Below the pieces are notes generated by a model. It had not been told where the DNA came from. It saw only the letters and a list, made by a program, of their open reading frames with translations, and did not search any database. Shown in pieces: positions 4,798-46,397 of a stretch of 64,000 nt of DNA; within the stretch, counting starts at the first letter, position 1; each line of letters opens with the position of its first letter. The DNA comes from a virus: positions 37,704 through 101,703 of IMG/VR virus record IMGVR_UViG_3300045988_114440; one strand, 5' to 3'. The position numbers and the translations under genes were made by a program.

Positions 4798-4870
4798 GGT
4801 CCTGTAGCTTAGTGGTGAAAGCAGGCGGCTCATAACCGCAAGATCGTGGGTTCAAATCCCTCTGGGACCA
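4798..4870 (+). tRNA. tRNA-Met/fMet (anticodon CAT; Ile-lysidine not excluded)
   Basis: Cloverleaf by eye: acceptor ggtcctg/tgggacc, D-stem gctt/aagc, anticodon loop cuCAUaa, T-loop ttcaaat; CCA not encoded. Confidence 0.7.
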
Positions 4871-4871
4871 C

Positions 4872-4942
4872 TGTCCAATGGTGTAGTGGTAGCACAACAG
4901 ATTTTGGTTCTGTTAGCGGAGGTTCGAATCCTCCTTGGATAA
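4872..4942 (+). tRNA. tRNA-Gln (anticodon TTG)
   Basis: Acceptor tgtccaa/ttggata, anticodon stem acaga/tctgt with loop ttTTGgt, T-arm ggagg-ttcgaat-cctcc; begins 1 nt after the previous tRNA. Confidence 0.7.
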
Positions 4943-5012
4943 CGGTACATATTTTGTGTAAAGTGTTAATTATCTAAGTGTTTGTGGTGTGTGAACATAG
5001 CAAACATTAAAT

Positions 5013-5084
5013 GGCCCATTAGTTTAACGGATAAAACCCTTGAGTCCTAATCAAAAGTTGCCTGTTCGATTCAGGCATGGGCTA
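5013..5084 (+). tRNA. tRNA-Arg (anticodon CCT)
   Basis: Acceptor ggcccat/atgggct, D-stem gttt/aaac, anticodon loop gtCCTaa, T-arm gcctg-ttcgatt-caggc. Confidence 0.6.
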
Positions 5085-5087
5085 CAT

Positions 5088-5159
5088 GGCTTGTTGGATG
5101 AGTGGTTTAGTCAGGGATCTGCAAAATCTCGTAGGGCGGTTCGATCCCGCCACAAGCCT
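5088..5159 (+). tRNA. tRNA-Cys (anticodon GCA)
   Basis: Perfect 7-bp acceptor ggcttgt/acaagcc, anticodon stem gggat/atctc with loop ctGCAaa, T-arm ggcgg-ttcgatc-ccgcc. Confidence 0.65.
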
Positions 5160-5177
5160 CTAAAAAAAAGTAAGACA

Positions 5178-11329: not shown

Positions 11330-11800
11330 AAAAAGGTTAGGCGCGTACCGTTAAACGCGTCTGTACGCCGTTGTCAGTGGGTGCACGTCCCGCGTATGCT
11401 TTAGACTGAAGCTGACAAAACAGAGAGTTATTTTACATATTGGAGATAGATATACCTTTGCCCTTGCCGTTGGCAATTAAAGGGCTGGTATTGCTGCATG
11501 AACTGCACTAAATAAGTGTGGTTTATGTTAGGTATGTTAGTACAGTTTGGAAAACATACCGTTGTACGCGGTTTATCTCCAGACCGAAACGTGTCTTACT
11601 TGCCTACACGTAAAATAGGACAAGGCTGTAGATTAAATTACAGGGTATAAACATGTAGCCTACCATGTAGGAGCGTGATATATCAAAACGCAAGGACACA
11701 ATCGCCTTTATTTGTGGCTAAGTTGTGTAGCAGACGGAAAATATAATAACAACATAGTACGGGCCTGTACACAAGAACTACGTACTAATTACGGGCTGTT

Positions 11801-11863
11801 GGTTGTAGCATAAAATTCGTATAGAATAGGAATGCGTGTTCGGTTCGATTCCGGAGCAACCTC
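11801..11863 (+). ncRNA. tRNA-like minihelix element (acceptor-like stem plus canonical T-arm)
   Basis: ttcgg-TTCGATT-ccgga T-arm; 5' ggttgt pairs with 3' gcaacc; no anticodon arm found by eye. Confidence 0.3.
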
Positions 11864-11886
11864 TAAATTATAAACAATATAATAAC

Positions 11887-12057
11887 ATGGGAAAGAAAGC
11901 AATGATCAACGCTTTAACTGAAGCGTTCAATAAATCTAAAAACAGTTGCGTAAAAATAACATTGCGTAACTATATCGAGACGGTTGAAGCACTAAGCGAA
12001 AGTGAGTACAAAGAGGCGGAAGGTTTCTATATTGAAGCACTTAACCGCTGGGGTTAA
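11887..12057 (+). CDS. hypothetical small protein (56 aa)
   Basis: ATG at 11887 (MGKKAMINAL...); the track ORF began at an upstream GTG that overlaps the tRNA-like element. Confidence 0.35.
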   Translation: MGKKAMINALTEAFNKSKNSCVKITLRNYIETVEALSESEYKEAEGFYIEALNRWG

Positions 12058-12079
12058 TCATAATTAAAGCATAAAGAAA

Positions 12080-12286
12080 ATGAAAAGGAAATTTAAATCT
12101 CACATGGTAGACGTCCGCGGTCTGTCCAGGAAAGAAGCTAAAGAAAAGCGGAAAAGAGCGTATCGGGAATTTATGTTGTATCGTGATCTTAAAGAAGCGT
12201 ATCATGCCGATACAGGAAAGGATAAATGTAAGCGTAAAGTTCATACATCACGAACATACGTCAAGGAAAATATAAACAGTATTTAA
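12080..12286 (+). CDS. small basic (K/R-rich) protein, possibly DNA-binding
   Basis: MKRKFKSH...KEAKEKRKRAYREF; co-oriented. Confidence 0.45.
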   Translation: MKRKFKSHMVDVRGLSRKEAKEKRKRAYREFMLYRDLKEAYHADTGKDKCKRKVHTSRTYVKENINSI

Positions 12287-12290
12287 ATAG

Positions 12291-12330
12291 GAGTAGGGTT
12301 TTTTCGAATATCGGAGCAGCCCTATTTTTG
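12291..12330 (+). terminator. possible terminator hairpin
   Basis: taggg...cccta stem with long loop, followed by TTTT. Confidence 0.3.
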
Positions 12331-12392
12331 TATCCTACTCTTTCTATTTACGGGTATGATATTCTGAGAGTGAACGGCGAATGTGGACAATA

Positions 12393-12484
12393 TTGGTCTA
12401 AAACGAAACAAAAATAGGAGCGTTCGGATATAATGCCGGTATTTTGTCTATATCATGTCGTTAAAATTGGTCTAAAACGAAACT
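12393..12484. repeat. two 21-nt direct repeats A[AT]ATTGGTCTAAAACGAAAC separated by a roughly 53-nt spacer
   Basis: Copies at 12390-12410 and 12464-12484. Confidence 0.5.
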
Positions 12485-12814
12485 TGAGGCGGTTTTCTGA
12501 CCCAAAATAGGGTGTCGGATGCCGCCTTTTTCATCTCTATGGATTGAAAATTAGGCTTATTGTATTTTTCTTAAAAATGAGGTATGCTTGATTATCAATT
12601 AGTTAGGTTTTATAATCCCCGTATTTTTGGACATACTTATTGTATTTTTTTATTCTATGTGGTGGTTTTTATTAGTAGCTGATCTTTATTTTCTGTCGGT
12701 TGGTATTCGCTCTATGTTGGAGTACGGACCGGATCAGTATAATATTGTAATGGTCTTTTGCTTTTCTTTGTTGGCTTTGATTATAGGTTTAAATATCTAT
12801 CTTGATAGGAGGAG

Positions 12815-12952
12815 CAGGCGGTAGGGCGTGGGCTGAAGGCTCTCTATTCTCTCTATGGAATGATATTATCTCCAAATCCCCCATACTCCATGCCAGAGTA
12901 TAAGCTTGTAGCGCTCTCCGTATGCCGGTAGTGAGGCGGTAGGGCGTGGGTT
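12815..12952. repeat. GC-rich direct repeat AGGCGGTAGGGCGTGGG, two copies about 120 bp apart
   Basis: Copies at about 12816-12832 and 12934-12950, inside a long noncoding stretch. Confidence 0.5.
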
Positions 12953-13023
12953 CTATGCGGAAAGCCGGAGGATTAGCGGGAGTTGGAGAGGGGGAGAGGG
13001 AGGGCACTCCCTACCAACAAAAT

Positions 13024-13140
13024 TCAATAGATAAGCGTTTTAAAACAACATTATGTAGGGTTTTCCCACAAAATTAAGGATTACAGTGCTTTAAAACAGC
13101 ATAATGTGAGTTTATTCTACAAAATTCAATAGGTTGAGAG
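13024..13140. repeat. tandem imperfect repeats of about 45 bp (TTTAAAACA[AG]CAT[TA]ATGT.GGTTT....ACAAAATT)
   Basis: Two adjacent copies; AAAATTCAATAG also recurs at 13019 and 13111. Confidence 0.45.
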
Positions 13141-13194
13141 TTGAAAACTATATTCTATAGATTAGTGGTAATCGGAATGTTTAACAATTAAAAT

Positions 13195-13464
13195 ATGGAT
13201 GGTATGAACGTATATGATTTTGCACCCGATTTAGATTTGAGTAAAGAAGTAGAAGGTTCTATTTTTGGGGTGAAAGGAATAGAAGGCAGTGATGGTATAG
13301 TATATGCTAAGGTAGTTAGCTTTATAGAAGTTAGGGATTACAGTTGTGAGGGGTGTATTTTTAATGATTGTTATAAGGATAAATGTTTATTATCGCGTAG
13401 TGATAGTTGTATAGATGGAGATTGGATTTGTAGGTACGAACAGGCTGCCATAGAGGGGGAGTAG
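13195..13464 (+). CDS. small Cys-rich protein, paralog of the 14655-14879 gene
   Basis: FAPDLDLS... CEGCIFNDCYKDKC aligns with FGPDMDLS... CKDCIFFNNSERC in the 14655-14879 product. Confidence 0.5.
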   Translation: MDGMNVYDFAPDLDLSKEVEGSIFGVKGIEGSDGIVYAKVVSFIEVRDYSCEGCIFNDCYKDKCLLSRSDSCIDGDWICRYEQAAIEGE

Positions 13465-13567
13465 GCGGCGCCTTGGGCTAAGGCCTGCGGTTGTAGGTGG
13501 AACGTAGGTCGGAGCAGAGCCTGGACAGTTTATTGTGGAACGTAAAAAAGAAGGAGGAGATAGCGAT

Positions 13568-13648
13568 ATGAAAAAGGCATTTAAGATATTTTTTATTATG
13601 CTTGTCATAGAAATAGTGCTGATAGCTATTTTAGATGCTATGGCGTAA
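13568..13648 (+). CDS. 26-aa hydrophobic peptide (MKKAFKIFFIMLVIEIVLIAILDAMA)
   Basis: Strong AGGAGG Shine-Dalgarno 8 nt upstream; single predicted transmembrane helix; too short for the ORF track. Confidence 0.3.
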   Translation: MKKAFKIFFIMLVIEIVLIAILDAMA

Positions 13649-13727
13649 GTGAGAAAAATTTCTTCATTAATTTTCTTATGCTTTAGACAAAGTGCTCCCG
13701 TCTGCGAAGATCGGAGCACTTGCTTTA

Positions 13728-13772
13728 TGGGATTCATGGTGCGGTAGGTCGGTTCGATTCCGGCGATCTCAC
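13728..13772 (+). ncRNA. tRNA-like minihelix element
   Basis: 5' tgggatt pairs with 3' gatctca (two G-U pairs), flanking the T-arm gtcgg-TTCGATT-ccggc; discriminator C; 30 nt upstream of the 13802 start. Confidence 0.3.
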
Positions 13773-13801
13773 ACAACATTAAAAACAAAGGAGGAAAGAA
13801 A

Positions 13802-14149
13802 ATGAAAGATGGCATTAAATTGCATCCAGAACACGGATTGAATCCGTCTATAGAAGTCTGCATGATATGTGGCGAAGAGATGGGGATTGCTTTATTAGGG
13901 AATAATATCAAAGGGCAGGCACCGCATCATATATGCACGGGCGGAGTATGTGACAATTGCAAAAAGATAATAGATGACGGAGGCTGTTTTATTATCGAAG
14001 TCGAGGATGGATCAGATCAAAAGAATCCGTATCGTACAGGGAGATATTGTGCGATAAAGAAAGAGGCGGCAAAGAAGATATTTGGACAGGAGCATAATAT
14101 TGTGTACATGGAAAAGTCTGCATACAGTCAAATAATACCACAAAAATAA
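13802..14149 (+). CDS. Cys-rich (zinc-binding) hypothetical protein
   Basis: AAGGAGG Shine-Dalgarno; CxxC...CxxC arrangement (CMICGEE...CDNCKK). Confidence 0.5.
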   Translation: MKDGIKLHPEHGLNPSIEVCMICGEEMGIALLGNNIKGQAPHHICTGGVCDNCKKIIDDGGCFIIEVEDGSDQKNPYRTGRYCAIKKEAAKKIFGQEHNIVYMEKSAYSQIIPQK

Positions 14150-14157
14150 AGAAGGAT

Positions 14158-14481
14158 ATGTTTACAAAAGAAGAGCGATTATTTATTTGGAAAGAAGCAT
14201 ATAGGGAAATCGAAGAATTACGTACTGGAGAATATATATGCGTTGCATTGAAACATGCAGTATTTAAATTTTTTGTAACTCCTAAAAATTCCGGAACTTT
14301 TTATGGGATGCCTTTATATGAACTGGTGAGAACATATTTCCCGGAATTGGAGAAAAAGAAAAGTATGGCTACAGAACCAGAAGGAAAATGGGGTATGTAT
14401 GGATGGTTTGGCTGTATTAGTCCAGAAACGAGGGAGGTGAGGCTAAATATCGTAAAAGACATTATAAAAGAATTAGAATAA
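14158..14481 (+). CDS. hypothetical protein
   Basis: Co-oriented ORF with tight spacing. Confidence 0.45.
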   Translation: MFTKEERLFIWKEAYREIEELRTGEYICVALKHAVFKFFVTPKNSGTFYGMPLYELVRTYFPELEKKKSMATEPEGKWGMYGWFGCISPETREVRLNIVKDIIKELE

Positions 14482-14527
14482 TATTTTTGTTAATCTATTT
14501 TATTCATCAAATTAAGTTTTGGGTTTT

Positions 14528-14634
14528 GGCATGTCGGTTCGTGAGGATAGACATGCCTATTTCTGTATCATAGAGGGATGACGCGGCGTGCCGGTGCGTA
14601 TGTGCCGGTTCTGGTTCGATTCCAGGAATCTCAC
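14528..14634 (+). ncRNA. tRNA-like element: 8-bp hairpin followed by a canonical T-arm and acceptor-like 3' strand
   Basis: ggcatgtc...gacatgcc hairpin; tctgg-TTCGATT-ccagg; 3' aatctca-c is almost identical to the 13765-13772 element; a full cloverleaf was not resolved by eye. Confidence 0.25.
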
Positions 14635-14654
14635 AAACAATAAATCATAATCAT

Positions 14655-14879
14655 ATGGAAGTAATAACATTCGGTCCGGATATGGATTTGTCTTCTAAAA
14701 AAGCAGGAGATGTATTTAGATTAAAATTGTATGGCATAGAGTATGATGTCAAAGTAGTTGGTGACGATGAAGATCCTCTTATGTTCTGCAAAGATTGTAT
14801 ATTTTTTAACAACTCCGAACGGTGTTCACTCTCAGAATCGCAAGACTGGTGCTTAAAAAAAGCAAGTTGTTTACTGTAA
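14655..14879 (+). CDS. small Cys-rich protein, paralog of the 13195-13464 gene
   Basis: Shared FxPDxDLS N-terminus and CxxCIF...C...C spacing. Confidence 0.5.
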   Translation: MEVITFGPDMDLSSKKAGDVFRLKLYGIEYDVKVVGDDEDPLMFCKDCIFFNNSERCSLSESQDWCLKKASCLL

Positions 14880-14887
14880 AATAAGAC

Positions 14888-15079
14888 ATGATGGGGGAAT
14901 TTAATGCGAAAGACGCCAATTTCTTATGGCGTCAAATTGGTAGGATTGATGGGGTGATAGAAACTCTGAACCGTACCGAAGGAGAGATGCCGGAAATTAT
15001 AGCTGGAGTGCTAAAAAGAATAAGAGATGATATAGATAAGTTTGTAGATAATAAAACAAAAGATTATGAGAATATATAA
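14888..15079 (+). CDS. hypothetical small protein
   Basis: Co-oriented ORF. Confidence 0.35.
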   Translation: MMGEFNAKDANFLWRQIGRIDGVIETLNRTEGEMPEIIAGVLKRIRDDIDKFVDNKTKDYENI

Positions 15080-45381: not shown

Positions 45382-46397
45382 TGGTCCCGGAAACACATTT
45401 GCTATATAAGGAGTTTAATGGTGTGAAACGTCTTGCCATATCTTATTCCCAGATAGATACGTTTCTTACTTGTCCAATGAAATGGTATAAGACTTACGTA
45501 GAGGGCAAAAGGTCTACGGAAAAACAAGAAGCTACATCTTATGGTACGGTTATCCATAAGACACTGGAATACTTCTTTAAAAACGGAAGACAGCCTTCTG
45601 GTAAAGACCTTGGAGAAGCGATAAGTTACTATGCTTACCAAGAAGACATACCTTGGCAATCACCGGAAAATATGATGATGGCCATGAAGCAATCTGGGGA
45701 ACTTCTTGCTTGGATTGTGGATCTGTTCAAAAAAGACGGCAATAGGTTTATGATAACTGATAGTGATCTTAATCCCTGCGAGAAACTTATCAGACACGGC
45801 GCTATAGTTGGAGTCGAAGAAGATTTTGTGCTGCCATACCGTCTTCCTAAGCCTGTTGATATAAATGGTGACGTTCATACCCATGTGTACATAGTAGGAT
45901 CGGTAGACCTTCATCTGGCTATAAAAAGCAAGAACGTAGTTCACCATTATGTCATAGATTGGAAATCAGGGAATAAGGTTTTTGATTCTAAGAAGTTGGA
46001 AACGAATTTACAGCATCCTATATATTCGTTTTACATCTATAGAAAATATGGTGGAGTTCTGCCAGATATGAACATCTATTTCTTTACCAGAACCAGGCAG
46101 TACCAAAAGGTTAAGGTGGATGAGGAACGTAAAACAAAATCTATAGAGATGCTAAATGACACTTTGTCTAAAATGTATGATTTTGAAGATAATAGTGTAA
46201 AAACATTTCAGGCATACATCCAGGGAGCAGAAGGAGCCAGGTATAGCAAGCGGCGTGCCACCCTAAGCCAGCCTGTTCCACAAAACAAGCTACCCTGCCC
46301 GTCAGCACTGTGTTACTATTGTGACTTTGGATTACATAACAAAAACGAATGCCCTTTCTCTTCGGATTGGGATCCGTCTAAAAAGATAAAACGATGA
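45378..46397 (+). CDS. Cas4-like / RecB-family PD-(D/E)XK exonuclease with Cys cluster
   Basis: N-terminal ISYSQIDTFLTCPMKWYKTYVEG; VIDWKSG...LQHPIYSFYIY core; C-terminal CPSALCYYCDF...ECPF cysteines. Confidence 0.65.
   Translation: MMVPETHLLYKEFNGVKRLAISYSQIDTFLTCPMKWYKTYVEGKRSTEKQEATSYGTVIHKTLEYFFKNGRQPSGKDLGEAISYYAYQEDIPWQSPENMMMAMKQSGELLAWIVDLFKKDGNRFMITDSDLNPCEKLIRHGAIVGVEEDFVLPYRLPKPVDINGDVHTHVYIVGSVDLHLAIKSKNVVHHYVIDWKSGNKVFDSKKLETNLQHPIYSFYIYRKYGGVLPDMNIYFFTRTRQYQKVKVDEERKTKSIEMLNDTLSKMYDFEDNSVKTFQAYIQGAEGARYSKRRATLSQPVPQNKLPCPSALCYYCDFGLHNKNECPFSSDWDPSKKIKR

What the first reader, a model, noticed from the sequence alone, without database searches (positions are those of the whole stretch)
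11801..14634. Three tRNA-like minihelix elements with the invariant T-loop GGTTCGATTCC, each placed just upstream of a small gene
At about 11839-11863, 13748-13772 and 14610-14634 the same canonical T-arm (5-bp stem plus TTCGATT loop) occurs. Each is followed by a 6-7 nt acceptor-like 3' strand that can pair with a nearby 5' segment (ggttgt/gcaacc; tgggatt/gatctca with G-U pairs; and in the third case only a weak 6-of-7 pairing of aatctca with tgaggat lying about 70 nt upstream inside the hairpin loop). Together they form tRNA minihelices without an obvious anticodon arm. Two of the 3' ends are nearly identical ((g/a)atctcac). Each element ends 20-40 nt before a start codon (11887, 13802, 14655). 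Possible roles are RNase P/tRNase Z processing punctuation of polycistronic transcripts, tRNA-like regulatory or decoy RNAs, remnants of attP-like tRNA 3' ends, or real but atypical (long-variable-arm) tRNAs that cannot be folded by eye. These are in addition to the bona fide four-tRNA cluster at 4798-5159.
Basis: seen in the sequence. Interest (0 to 1): 0.7.

Follow-up and report, generated by a model that had tools for sequence, protein, structure and literature searches.

The report
Phage tRNA-like minihelices before small genes
Three short RNA elements in this gut phage copy only the top half of a tRNA and sit just before small genes; similar elements occur in many unrelated phages and probably serve as cutting signals for the host's tRNA-processing enzymes, although no cleavage has been shown.

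Summary
GGTTCGATTCC occurs exactly at 11842, 13751 and 14613, each inside a 5-bp T arm. A 3' strand follows that pairs with a nearby 5' strand, and a start codon lies 20-29 nt downstream. ARAGORN and Rfam call none of the three as tRNA, tmRNA or any other family.

About 100 related phage contigs support the pairings, mostly through G-U-preserving changes plus a few compensatory ones. The variation therefore fits a plus-strand RNA.

One correction: the 5' partner of element 3 is GGGATG at 14575-14580, not the upstream hairpin loop.

All three share a 6-bp acceptor stem beginning with G, a GG-containing linker or dispensable central arm, a canonical T arm, and a discriminator followed by C. True phage tRNA genes have the same N73-C74 signature.

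An unrelated phage lineage carries an equivalent element with strong covariation (9 of 11 pairs). A model built from that lineage ranks elements 3 and 2 as the top two hits in the window. Broad scans found 84-89 further distinct families with the same layout: structured upstream, minihelix, then about 20-30 nt to a start codon.

The most likely function is an RNase P/RNase Z processing signal within polycistronic phage mRNAs. This is inferred, not shown. A host-tRNA (attP) origin is not supported.

The parts
11801..11863 (+). Element 1, a tRNA-like three-way junction. Acceptor GGTTGT (11801-11806) pairs with GCAACC (11856-11861). Central arm: GCAT (11808-11811)/ATGC (11832-11835) with inner ATTC (11815-11818)/GAAT (11824-11827). 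T arm: TTCGG (11839-11843), loop TTCGATT (11844-11850), CCGGA (11851-11855). Discriminator T 11862, then C 11863.
   Evidence: The sequence is. The proposed fold is the minimum-energy fold. In 15 distinct variants all 19 pairs are 100% paired, two pairs show changes on both sides, and 0 of 500 shuffles reach the observed score. The 3' half aligns with the phage's tRNA-Cys, with one acceptor pair fewer.
13690..13721 (+). Hairpin upstream of element 2: AAGTGCTCC...GGAGCACTT with inner GTCT/AGAT and a GCGA tetraloop. It ends 7 nt before the minihelix.
   Evidence: The terminator scan does not call it, because the T run is too short. It is conserved in relatives.
13729..13772 (+). Element 2, a minimal minihelix. 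Acceptor GGGATT (13729-13734) pairs with GATCTC (13765-13770); T 13728 could add a seventh pair with A 13771. 13-nt linker CATGGTGCGGTAG (13735-13747). T arm: GTCGG (13748-13752), loop (13753-13759), CCGGC (13760-13764). A 13771, C 13772.
   Evidence: Across 11 variants the stems are kept while the 3' part of the linker varies, which breaks the alternative minimum-energy pairing. Model R1 gives 19.6 bits, E = 0.035, full length. Near-identical linkers occur in unrelated phages, for example L274 CATGGTGCATTG.
14528..14557 (+). Hairpin upstream of element 3: GGCATGTC...GACATGCC with inner TTC/GGA and a GTGA tetraloop.
   Evidence: Relatives change GGA to GAA, keeping the pair. It is absent in L013, where the element is retained.
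14575..14634 (+). Element 3. Acceptor GGGATG (14575-14580) pairs with AATCTC (14627-14632); this is 5 pairs here and 6 in most relatives, where 14627 is C. GG-containing mini-hairpin/linker ACGCGGCGT (14581-14589). Dispensable central hairpin GCCGG (14590-14594)/CCGGT (14605-14609). T arm: TCTGG (14610-14614), loop (14615-14621), CCAGG (14622-14626). A 14633, C 14634.
   Evidence: In 27 variants 98.3% of cells are paired, with 15 extra pair types, nearly all reached through G-U. Model R1 gives 25.2 bits, E = 0.0019, the best hit in the window. The central hairpin is deleted in L044 and L074.
11864..11886 (+). A/T-rich unstructured 23-nt leader between element 1 and the ATG at 11887.
13773..13801 (+). 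29-nt leader between element 2 and the ATG at 13802.
   Evidence: In relatives a different gene follows, with the junction about 12 nt after the element.
14635..14654 (+). 20-nt leader between element 3 and the ATG at 14655.
   Evidence: In L074, L184 and L185 a different gene follows, with the junction about 10 nt after the element.

Best explanation
The three elements are transcribed on the + strand as parts of the intergenic regions of polycistronic phage mRNAs. Each folds into the top half of a tRNA:
- a 6-bp acceptor stem stacked on a canonical T arm;
- a GG-containing linker or small arm that can dock on the T loop, as a D loop does, to form a tRNA elbow;
- a 3' end with a discriminator followed by C74, as in the phage's own tRNA genes.

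I infer that they act as cutting signals for the host's tRNA-maturation enzymes.
- RNase P would cut just 5' of the first G. The upstream mRNA would then end a few nucleotides after a stable hairpin.
- RNase Z, or another 3' tRNA-processing activity, would cut after the discriminator/C.
- The result would be a 45-65-nt tRNA-like RNA and a downstream mRNA with a short, unstructured 20-30-nt leader in front of its start codon.

Such an element would uncouple and insulate neighbouring gene cassettes. It would be a natural counterpart of plant mitochondrial t-elements and of engineered tRNA-spacer arrays.

Shown: the sequence features, the conserved pairing, the strand specificity, the genomic layout and the wide distribution.
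Inferred: transcription, elbow formation and every cleavage step.
For: 1. The motif and T arms are real and non-random.
2. The pairing is maintained in relatives.
 - Element 1: 100% of cells paired, two compensatory pairs, 0 of 500 shuffles reach the score.
 - Element 3: 98.3% paired, with variation almost only through G-U intermediates. These pairs would be C-A mismatches on the other strand.
3. The parts that matter for decoding are missing, variable or deleted in natural variants, while the acceptor and T arm are always kept.
4. The invariant features are the ones I know to favour bacterial RNase P: a G+1-C72 pair, a T loop and elbow, and an R73-C74 tail. The phage's four true tRNAs lack CCA but all have C74. 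So do 97% of 387 other phage tRNAs, which points to the same maturation route.
5. An unrelated phage lineage, anchored on a conserved upstream protein, has an equivalent element at a fixed position.
 - 9 of 11 pairs are compensatory, 97.9% of cells are paired, and 0 of 500 shuffles reach the score.
 - A model built from that lineage finds elements 3 and 2 full-length as the two best hits in 64 kb. True tRNAs match only locally.
6. The layout holds across 84-89 further distinct families.
 - The upstream 45 nt are more structured than controls: median -10.8 against -7.3 kcal/mol, p = 2e-4 to 2e-8.
 - The next same-strand ORF starts a median 32 nt after the element, and within 60 nt in 54 of 84 families.
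7. The downstream gene differs between genomes that carry the same element.
8. Plant mitochondrial t-elements are a precedent for tRNA-like mRNA processing signals (PMC1920247).
Against: - No RNA data were available, so neither transcription nor cleavage is shown.
- Folding energy is no better than shuffled sequence. For elements 2 and 3 the tRNA-like fold is not the minimum-energy fold.
- The close relatives are about 85-100% identical, so covariation within the window's own family is thin. The acceptor stems of elements 1 and 2 hardly vary.
- A 6-bp acceptor gives an 11-bp stack, which is not the canonical 12-bp ruler length for RNase P and RNase Z.
- A plain processing site does not obviously explain why 6 bp is the norm.
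- The broad scans were seeded with patterns that required the T loop and the CAC tail. Only the protein-anchored family and the by-catch sample are unbiased.
- Distant homologues of the downstream protein in other phages have no such element.
Confidence: 0.45

Rival explanations
1. The released minihelices are the functional product. They would be small trans-acting tRNA mimics that titrate or redirect a factor recognising the acceptor/T-arm half of tRNA. Candidates include defence toxins that attack tRNA 3' ends, the CCA-adding enzyme, tRNA-modifying enzymes and synthetases. On this reading, processing is only how the RNAs are made.
For: - The T loop and N73-C74 are strictly conserved, and a 6-bp acceptor is the norm across unrelated phages. 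That looks like more constraint than a cleavage site needs.
- There are several paralogues per genome: 3 here, and 3-5 in L309 and L328.
- Pairs G2-C71, G3-U70 and G4-C69 of elements 2 and 3 and of L036, counted in the 7-pair numbering where the unpaired nucleotide before the first G is position 1, match the alanine identity set of tRNA-Ala. The comparison with tRNA-Ala is from my own knowledge; the sequences are.
- The phage encodes a polynucleotide kinase/phosphatase near its tRNA cluster, which suggests a conflict centred on tRNA.
Against: - The tight 20-30-nt spacing to a start codon and the upstream hairpin are not explained by a purely trans-acting RNA.
- G3-U70 is not kept in all variants or families.
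- No partner protein is conserved between the two phage groups.
- No abundance or CCA-tailing data are available.
Confidence: 0.2
2. The element stays attached and acts in cis on the downstream gene. It could be a 5'-terminal protective structure against 5'-end-dependent decay, or a ribosome-recruiting or standby structure next to the ribosome-binding site.
For: - The distance to the start codon is fixed and short, and the leader downstream is unstructured.
- In the second phage lineage the variable-arm loop carries GGGGGA, like the downstream Shine-Dalgarno sequence.
Against: - Any stable hairpin would protect a 5' end, so this does not explain the invariant T loop and C74.
- The window's elements carry no Shine-Dalgarno-like loop.
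- The same element precedes unrelated genes.
Confidence: 0.15
3. The elements are decaying remnants of phage tRNA genes with no function of their own. They would persist by chance and matter only as short repeats that cause recombination and deletions.
For: - The acceptor and trailer of element 1 look like the phage's tRNA-Cys minus one base pair.
- L103 is a recombinant between elements 2 and 3 at the shared T loop.
- Deletion variants of the central hairpin exist.
Against: - Pairing is maintained through compensatory and wobble changes with almost no disruptions.
- The acceptor and T arm are kept while the rest decays.
- The same reduced design recurs in unrelated phages, with strong covariation and a fixed position relative to genes.
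Confidence: 0.08
4. The conserved 11-mer and its flanks work at the DNA level, as a promoter, a protein-binding site, or an attP-like core copied from a host tRNA gene.
For: - The 11-mer is identical in all three copies, whereas the stems differ.
- Gene-content breakpoints lie within about 12 nt of the elements.
Against: - Variation preserves G-U pairs on the + strand only.
- No host tRNA with this 3' end was found in 185,579 species genomes. There were 51 hits, about the chance number by my estimate, and 2 unrelated tRNAs.
- No promoter-like excess was seen.
- The 5' strand covaries with the 3' strand in the related class.
Confidence: 0.05

Closest known systems
t-elements of plant mitochondrial mRNAs (Forner et al. 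2007, PMC1920247)
   Same: Both are tRNA-like structures without decoding function, embedded next to protein-coding genes. In plant mitochondria they define mRNA 5' and 3' ends through RNase P and RNase Z cleavage. That is the same logic as proposed here.
   Different: t-elements are organellar, are usually fuller cloverleaf-like remnants, and are experimentally mapped. The elements here are in bacteriophage DNA, are reduced to an acceptor/T-arm minihelix with a 6-bp acceptor and an N73-C74 tail, and have no mapped ends.
mascRNA / MALAT1 and MEN-beta tRNA-like 3'-end modules (own knowledge)
   Same: A tRNA-like element directly follows a stabilising structure. RNase P cleavage creates the protected 3' end of the upstream RNA and releases a small tRNA-like RNA. 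The hairpin-then-minihelix order is the same.
   Different: Those modules are eukaryotic nuclear long non-coding RNAs. The upstream protector there is a triple helix rather than a hairpin, mascRNA is a full cloverleaf with a 7-bp acceptor, and no downstream gene is involved.
Minihelix model substrates of RNase P, RNase Z and the CCA-adding enzyme (own knowledge, e.g. McClain, Guerrier-Takada and Altman 1987)
   Same: An acceptor stem stacked on a T arm is the minimal unit these enzymes accept. Element 2 is essentially such a substrate with a 13-nt linker.
   Different: Those are artificial constructs with a 7-bp acceptor and a 3' RCCA. The natural elements have 6 bp, only N73-C74, and a GG-containing linker.
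Transfer RNA (Rfam RF00005) and the phage's own four-tRNA cluster at 4798-5160
   Same: They share the T arm, the acceptor stem, the discriminator plus C74 and the lack of an encoded CCA. Element 1 looks derived from tRNA-Cys.
   Different: The elements have no D stem and no anticodon arm or anticodon, and the acceptor is one pair short. They fall below the tRNA model's threshold: there is no hit for elements 1 and 2 at E <= 10, and only a weak tRNA-Sec hit for element 3 (17.6 bits against a cut-off of 47).
Bacterial Y RNA YrlA tRNA-like domain (Chen et al. 2014, PMC4201824) and the tmRNA tRNA-like domain
   Same: Both are non-coding RNAs, found in bacteria and phages, that copy the acceptor/T-arm/elbow half of tRNA.
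   Different: YrlA also has a Ro60-binding stem and lies next to rsr. tmRNA has a tag reading frame, pseudoknots and an encoded Ala identity set. Neither the models nor these extra parts are found here.

Membership tests
Transfer RNA (functional tRNA gene) | Cloverleaf with a D arm and a 5-bp anticodon stem carrying a 7-nt loop; detectable by ARAGORN or the Rfam tRNA model | tested here: not met
   ARAGORN calls only 4798-5160. The Rfam gathering search finds three of those four tRNAs and nothing at the elements. The permissive search gives only tRNA-Sec at 17.6 bits (cut-off 47) for element 3. The central regions are variable, 5-10-nt loops without U33, or absent.
Transfer RNA (functional tRNA gene) | 7-bp acceptor stem directly stacked on a 5-bp T stem with a T-loop consensus | tested here: inconclusive
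   The T arm is canonical in all three. The acceptor has 6 pairs (5 in this window's element 3), followed by an unpaired or discriminator base. Only element 2 could form a seventh pair.
tmRNA | tRNA-like domain combined with a tag reading frame and pseudoknots; detectable by ARAGORN tmRNA mode or the Rfam tmRNA models | tested here: not met
   ARAGORN reports no tmRNA. No Rfam tmRNA hit appears even at E <= 10.
tRNA-like mRNA processing elements (t-element / mascRNA type) | Non-decoding tRNA-like fold embedded in a longer transcript next to other genes | tested here: met
   All three are intergenic, on the same strand as the flanking genes, and lie 20-29 nt before a start codon. Pairing is conserved. 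That they lie inside a longer transcript is inferred from gene spacing, not measured.
tRNA-like mRNA processing elements (t-element / mascRNA type) | Cleavage by RNase P at the 5' side and RNase Z at the 3' side, defining the ends of flanking RNAs | not testable with these tools
   No RNA-end data or enzyme assays were available.
attP core copied from a host tRNA gene | Identity of the element's 3' part with the 3' end of a host tRNA gene, usually with an integrase nearby | tested here: not met
   The scan for GGTTCGATTCC-N4-ATYTCAC in 185,579 species genomes gave 51 hits, close to the chance number by my estimate. Most were in unrelated contexts that ARAGORN does not call as tRNA, two were gammaproteobacterial tRNAs, and one was a 3.9-kb contig that is the phage itself. 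The 3' end of element 1 was not scanned. No integrase is annotated in the parts of the related record that were fetched.
Bacterial Y RNA (YrlA) | tRNA-like domain joined to a Ro60-binding stem, encoded next to rsr; Rfam model | tested here: not met
   No Rfam hit. No Ro60-like product appears in the annotation of the related record that was fetched. The rest of the window was not searched for a Ro60 gene.
Phage 'elbow minihelix' class proposed here (not a curated family) | G-initiated 6-bp acceptor, GG-containing linker or arm, canonical T arm, discriminator followed by C, structured upstream flank, start codon about 20-30 nt downstream | tested here: met
   Elements 2 and 3 are the two best full-length hits of a model built only from the unrelated phage lineage (25.2 and 19.6 bits). 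Element 1 meets the listed features but scores only locally with that model and has T rather than A as discriminator.

The most novel reading that the evidence does not exclude
The three elements may belong to a large, so far undescribed class of phage-encoded 'elbow minihelix' RNAs. The design is a tRNA reduced to a 6-bp acceptor, a roughly 10-15-nt GG linker, a T arm and an N73-C74 tail. It would have arisen repeatedly or spread across unrelated phages of gut and environmental bacteria. On this reading phages use them as a general, host-enzyme-driven system to cut and insulate gene cassettes, and the released RNAs may also act as tRNA-end mimics in phage-host conflict.
Probability: 0.35. Interest if true: 0.8.

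Novelty: new variant of a known kind. Interest (0 to 1): 0.66.

Why it matters
If the elements are RNase P/RNase Z cutting signals, phages would use a compact 45-65-nt module, powered by the host, to punctuate operons and to make exchangeable gene cassettes independent of their neighbours. Organelles use this principle, and engineers use it in tRNA-spacer arrays. I found no description of it for bacteriophages in the searchable literature.

There is also a practical point for annotation. tRNA finders and Rfam both miss these elements, and one is annotated as part of a protein-coding gene in the related GenBank record (L001 2541-2699).

The class is easy to test, because predicted cleavage positions are given to the nucleotide.

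Tried and rejected
- **Rfam, all 4227 families.** I searched the window at gathering thresholds, the region at E <= 10, and eight loci of the second lineage. Nothing matched at the elements.
- **ARAGORN tRNA/tmRNA.** Nothing was called at the elements.
- **Thermodynamic z-scores.** Not significant. Energy is not a usable argument here.
- **Alternative hairpin-like pairing of element 2** (GUG.GGU ... AUC.CAC, the minimum-energy fold). Rejected because relatives change GGT to AGC, AAC or AAT.
Rejected in favour of GGGATG at 14575-14580.
- **attP/host tRNA origin.** The genome-wide scan was negative.
- **Link to the downstream protein family.** More distant homologues (47-57% identity; L182, L186) sit in tight operons without any T arm, so the element is not tied to that gene.
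- **Isolate phages carrying the second-lineage element.** No match.
- **Alanine identity (G3-U70).** It is present in elements 2 and 3 and in L036, but not conserved across variants or families. I kept it only as a side note.
- **Literature searches** for a description of such phage elements found none. The library lacks most subscription journals, so prior description cannot be excluded.
- **The 'inside a long ORF' statistic** was uninformative and was discarded.

Full report
**1. What is in the window**

The 11-mer GGTTCGATTCC occurs exactly three times outside the tRNA cluster, at 11842, 13751 and 14613, all on the + strand. With one mismatch allowed, the only extra hits are two of the true tRNAs. 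That makes 5 hits against 0.83 expected, and 0 of 100 shuffles reached 5.

Each copy is the centre of a 5-bp stem with a 7-nt TTCGATT loop. A window-wide scan for such T arms finds only these three and three of the four tRNAs.

ARAGORN calls only the four tRNAs at 4798-5160 and no tmRNA. Rfam at gathering thresholds finds three of those tRNAs and a HEARO RNA, and nothing at the elements. A permissive search of 11500-14900 gives only a tRNA-Sec match of 17.6 bits (cut-off 47, E = 5.9) for the third element.

The start codons at 11887, 13802 and 14655 are confirmed. The downstream proteins are small and have no informative family match.

**2. Anatomy**

- **Element 1 (11801-11863)** is a three-way junction.
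 - Acceptor GGTTGT/GCAACC, 6 bp.
 - A central arm, GCAT/ATGC with inner ATTC/GAAT.
 - T arm TTCGG/CCGGA, followed by T-C.
- **Element 2 (13729-13772)** is minimal.
 - Acceptor GGGATT/GATCTC.
 - A 13-nt linker, CATGGTGCGGTAG.
 - T arm GTCGG/CCGGC, followed by A-C.
- **Element 3 (14575-14634).**
 - Acceptor GGGATG/(A)ATCTC.
 - A GG-containing stretch, ACGCGGCGT.
 - A central hairpin GCCGG/CCGGT.
 - T arm TCTGG/CCAGG, followed by A-C.

A GNRA-capped hairpin precedes elements 2 and 3, at 13690-13721 and 14528-14557. The terminator scan does not call either hairpin.

Folding energies are no better than shuffled sequence (z = -0.70, 0.01, -0.18). The tRNA-like fold is the minimum-energy fold for element 1. 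It lies 2.5 kcal/mol above the minimum for element 2 and 4.4 kcal/mol above for element 3.

**3. Relatives of this phage**

The window is about 89-94% identical to phage csAssE-Sib (OR575929.1), a 151-kb human-gut phage. That record carries the same four tRNAs and, a few kb from them, adjacent genes for a polynucleotide kinase/phosphatase and an NrnA-like phosphodiesterase. In it, element 3 lies inside an annotated 'hypothetical protein'.

A pattern scan of IMG/VR returned more than 100 contigs of this phage group. From these I collected 15 distinct variants of element 1, 11 of element 2 and 27 of element 3.

- **Element 1.** All 19 proposed pairs are paired in every variant. Two pairs change on both sides (C-G to U-A in the T stem and in the inner hairpin). 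None of 500 column shuffles reaches the observed pairing or covariation score.
- **Element 3.** 98.3% of cells are paired. The 15 additional pair types arise almost entirely through G-U intermediates. The shuffle control is uninformative for this element.
- **Strand.** G-U pairs would be C-A mismatches on the other strand, so the constraint is on a + strand RNA.
- **Element 2.** The stems are nearly invariant while the 3' half of the linker varies. That variation destroys the alternative minimum-energy pairing.

Natural variants show what is dispensable:

- L044 and L074 lack the central hairpin of element 3.
- L013 lacks the hairpin upstream of element 3.
- L103 is a recombinant between elements 2 and 3 at the shared T loop, and has lost the two genes between them.

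The gene following an element can differ between genomes, with the junction 10-12 nt after the element.

**4.

- **Host tRNA 3' end (attP).**
 - I scanned one genome from each of 185,579 bacterial and archaeal species for GGTTCGATTCC-N4-ATYTCAC.
 - The scan gave 51 hits, which is about the chance number by my estimate. Most lie in unrelated contexts that ARAGORN does not call as tRNA.
 - Two hits are gammaproteobacterial tRNAs. One is a 3.9-kb contig binned with a Veillonella genome that is simply the phage.
- **Atypical real tRNA.** This is excluded by the missing or variable central parts and the failed tRNA models.
- **Tie to the downstream protein.** More distant homologues (47-57% identity) lie in tight operons with no T arm nearby.

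**5. A shared 3' signature with true phage tRNAs**

None of the phage's four tRNAs encodes CCA, but in all four a C follows the discriminator (A-C, A-C, A-C, T-C). The elements end in T-C, A-C and A-C after a 6-bp acceptor.

The acceptor and trailer of element 1 resemble those of the phage tRNA-Cys with one base pair removed (ACAAGCC-TCTAAA against RCAA-CC-TCTAAA).

In a sample of 387 distinct ARAGORN tRNAs from diverse viral contigs, 97% have C74 although only about 38% encode full CCA. ARAGORN detection does not depend on C74.

The elements therefore copy the discriminator-plus-C74 end of phage tRNA genes on an acceptor stem that is one pair short.

**6. An unrelated phage lineage with the same design**

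The first scan also hit small environmental viral contigs that encode WhiB-like proteins and have no sequence similarity to the window.

I anchored on the conserved 148-residue protein upstream and fetched 80 loci with 61-100% protein identity. Nearly every locus with enough downstream sequence carries a tRNA-like element at the same position. The downstream gene varies: a DNA methyltransferase, a zinc-ribbon protein and others.

Over 30 distinct sequences:

- the 6-bp acceptor and 5-bp T stem are 97.9% paired;
- 9 of 11 pairs show changes on both sides;
- 0 of 500 shuffles reach the observed score.

Other features:

- The first paired base is G, and the base before it never pairs with the A that follows the 3' strand.
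- A-C after the stem is nearly invariant.
- A small hairpin with a GG loop takes the place of the D arm.

Rfam has no family for this element, and no isolate phage carries it.

A covariance model built only from this lineage (R1) was run over the whole window without filters. Element 3 (25.2 bits, E = 0.0019) and element 2 (19.6 bits, E = 0.035) were the two best hits, both full-length. The true tRNAs matched only locally on the T arm (15.4 bits or less), and element 1 matched only on its T loop. One training sequence (L036) shares the GGGAT/ATCTC stem with elements 2 and 3, which gives a small bias.

**7. How widespread the design is**

Two further scans required only the T loop, eight free positions and CAC.

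- Of 190 matches not called by ARAGORN, 80 have a perfect T stem and a perfect 6-bp acceptor partner starting with G. The shuffled-acceptor control gave 19.
- Many are minimal like element 2, with 10-14-nt linkers built around (A/T)GGT.
 - Examples are AATGGTTAAT, AACGGTTTAA and TATGGTAGACAG.
 - In L274 the linker is CATGGTGCATTG, almost the same as element 2's.
- In the by-catch of the same loci, which was not selected by the CAC pattern, 26 of 74 non-ARAGORN minihelices are followed by AC after 6 bp. Another 13 are followed by AC after a seventh G-C pair. The chance expectation for AC is 1 in 16.

Across 84-89 distinct families:

- The 45 nt upstream are more structured than controls. The median is -10.8 kcal/mol, against -7.3 for shuffled or distant windows and -4.5 for the downstream flank. 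The p-values are 2e-4 to 2e-8.
- The next same-strand ORF starts a median 32 nt after the element. It starts within 60 nt in 54 of 84 families, against 21 of 84 in the opposite-direction control.

**8. Interpretation**

The following are shown:

- A conserved, strand-specific RNA fold equal to the acceptor/T-arm half of a tRNA.
- A linker able to supply the two G residues that dock on a T loop.
- The same 3' signature as phage tRNA genes.
- A recurrent layout of hairpin, minihelix, short unstructured leader, then start codon.
- Indifference to which gene follows.

From established knowledge, an acceptor/T-arm minihelix is the minimal substrate of RNase P, RNase Z and the CCA-adding enzyme. G+1-C72, the elbow and R73-C74 are positive determinants for bacterial RNase P.

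The best explanation is therefore a processing signal, analogous to plant mitochondrial t-elements (PMC1920247) and to the MALAT1/mascRNA module. RNase P would cut 5' of the first G, leaving the upstream RNA ending at a hairpin. A 3' cut would free a downstream mRNA with a defined 20-30-nt leader. I give this 0.45.

I cannot separate it cleanly from two related readings: that the released minihelix itself is a tRNA-end mimic (0.2), or that it stays attached as a cis-acting leader (0.15). Neutral tRNA decay (0.08) and DNA-level or attP roles (0.05) fit the data poorly.

Two points remain unexplained: why the acceptor is systematically 6 bp, and why C74 is so strongly kept in both the elements and true phage tRNAs.

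**9. Novelty**

I found no description of such elements in phages in the searchable literature. One large survey of viral structured RNAs mentions 'tRNAs or tRNA-like structures' only in general terms and for ARAGORN-overlapping cases (PMC10690425). The library lacks most subscription journals.

I rate this a new variant of a known kind, tRNA-like processing or mimic elements. It is likely to be a sizeable unannotated class.

Noticed in passing
window 44685-44914 (+): There is a full-length match to the HEARO RNA family (RF02033; 90.4 bits, E = 5e-17), which I know as the omega-RNA scaffold of IscB systems. No IscB-sized ORF follows it; the next ORF (45378-46397) encodes an unrelated 339-residue protein.
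   Followed up: partly
window 12290-13190: This is a roughly 900-nt non-coding, repeat-rich stretch between elements 1 and 2. It holds three ~51-nt tandem units (13017-13160), a 29-nt repeat at 12381 and 12455, and a 17-nt exact repeat at 12816 and 12934. The related GenBank record is opened inside it. It may hold an origin or a promoter array.
   Followed up: partly
loci L267-L505 (diverse IMG/VR contigs); window tRNAs at 4798-5160: C at position 74 is present in 377 of 387 distinct phage tRNA genes, although only about 38% encode full CCA. All four tRNAs of this window follow the rule. ARAGORN detection does not depend on C74.
   Followed up: partly
L103 (about 817 on the reverse strand); L044, L074, L013: Several natural rearrangements occur at the elements. 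L103 joins the 5' half of element 2 to the 3' half of element 3 at the shared T loop and has lost the two genes between them. L044 and L074 have lost the central hairpin of element 3, between two direct GTGCCGGT repeats. L013 has lost the upstream hairpin and most of the preceding gene.
   Followed up: yes
L187-L266 (for example L209 1989-2063, L187 1984-2049): In the second phage lineage the variable arm of the tRNA-like element carries a conserved GGGGGA loop resembling the Shine-Dalgarno sequence of the downstream gene. The one or two hairpins upstream carry CCTTTCC or CCTTCCG loops resembling the 3' end of 16S rRNA. This hints at an added translational control layer.
   Followed up: no
L328 (reverse strand, about 405-2977): At least four minihelices lie in one locus. 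Three are followed, after two or three bases, by a TTGACAC-N4-GTGTCAA palindrome, which could be an operator or -35-like site. In that phage the elements may sit at the ends of transcription units.
   Followed up: no
window 5114-5130, compared with 13729-13733/13766-13770 and 14575-14579/14628-14632: The acceptor helix GGGAT/ATCTC of elements 2 and 3, including its G-T wobble, is identical to the anticodon stem of the phage's tRNA-Cys. The acceptor of element 1 resembles the tRNA-Cys acceptor minus one pair. Either a shared origin or coincidence is possible.
   Followed up: partly
L001 2541-2699 (OR575929.1 148558-148716): In the deposited csAssE-Sib annotation, the homologue of element 3 lies inside a 52-residue 'hypothetical protein' CDS. 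That CDS is probably a miscall over a structured RNA.
   Followed up: partly
L186 5666-6904: A more distant phage that carries a homologue of the 13802 gene encodes a PolyA_pol/CCA-adding-enzyme family protein (PF01743). It has no tRNA-like element near the homologous gene.
   Followed up: no
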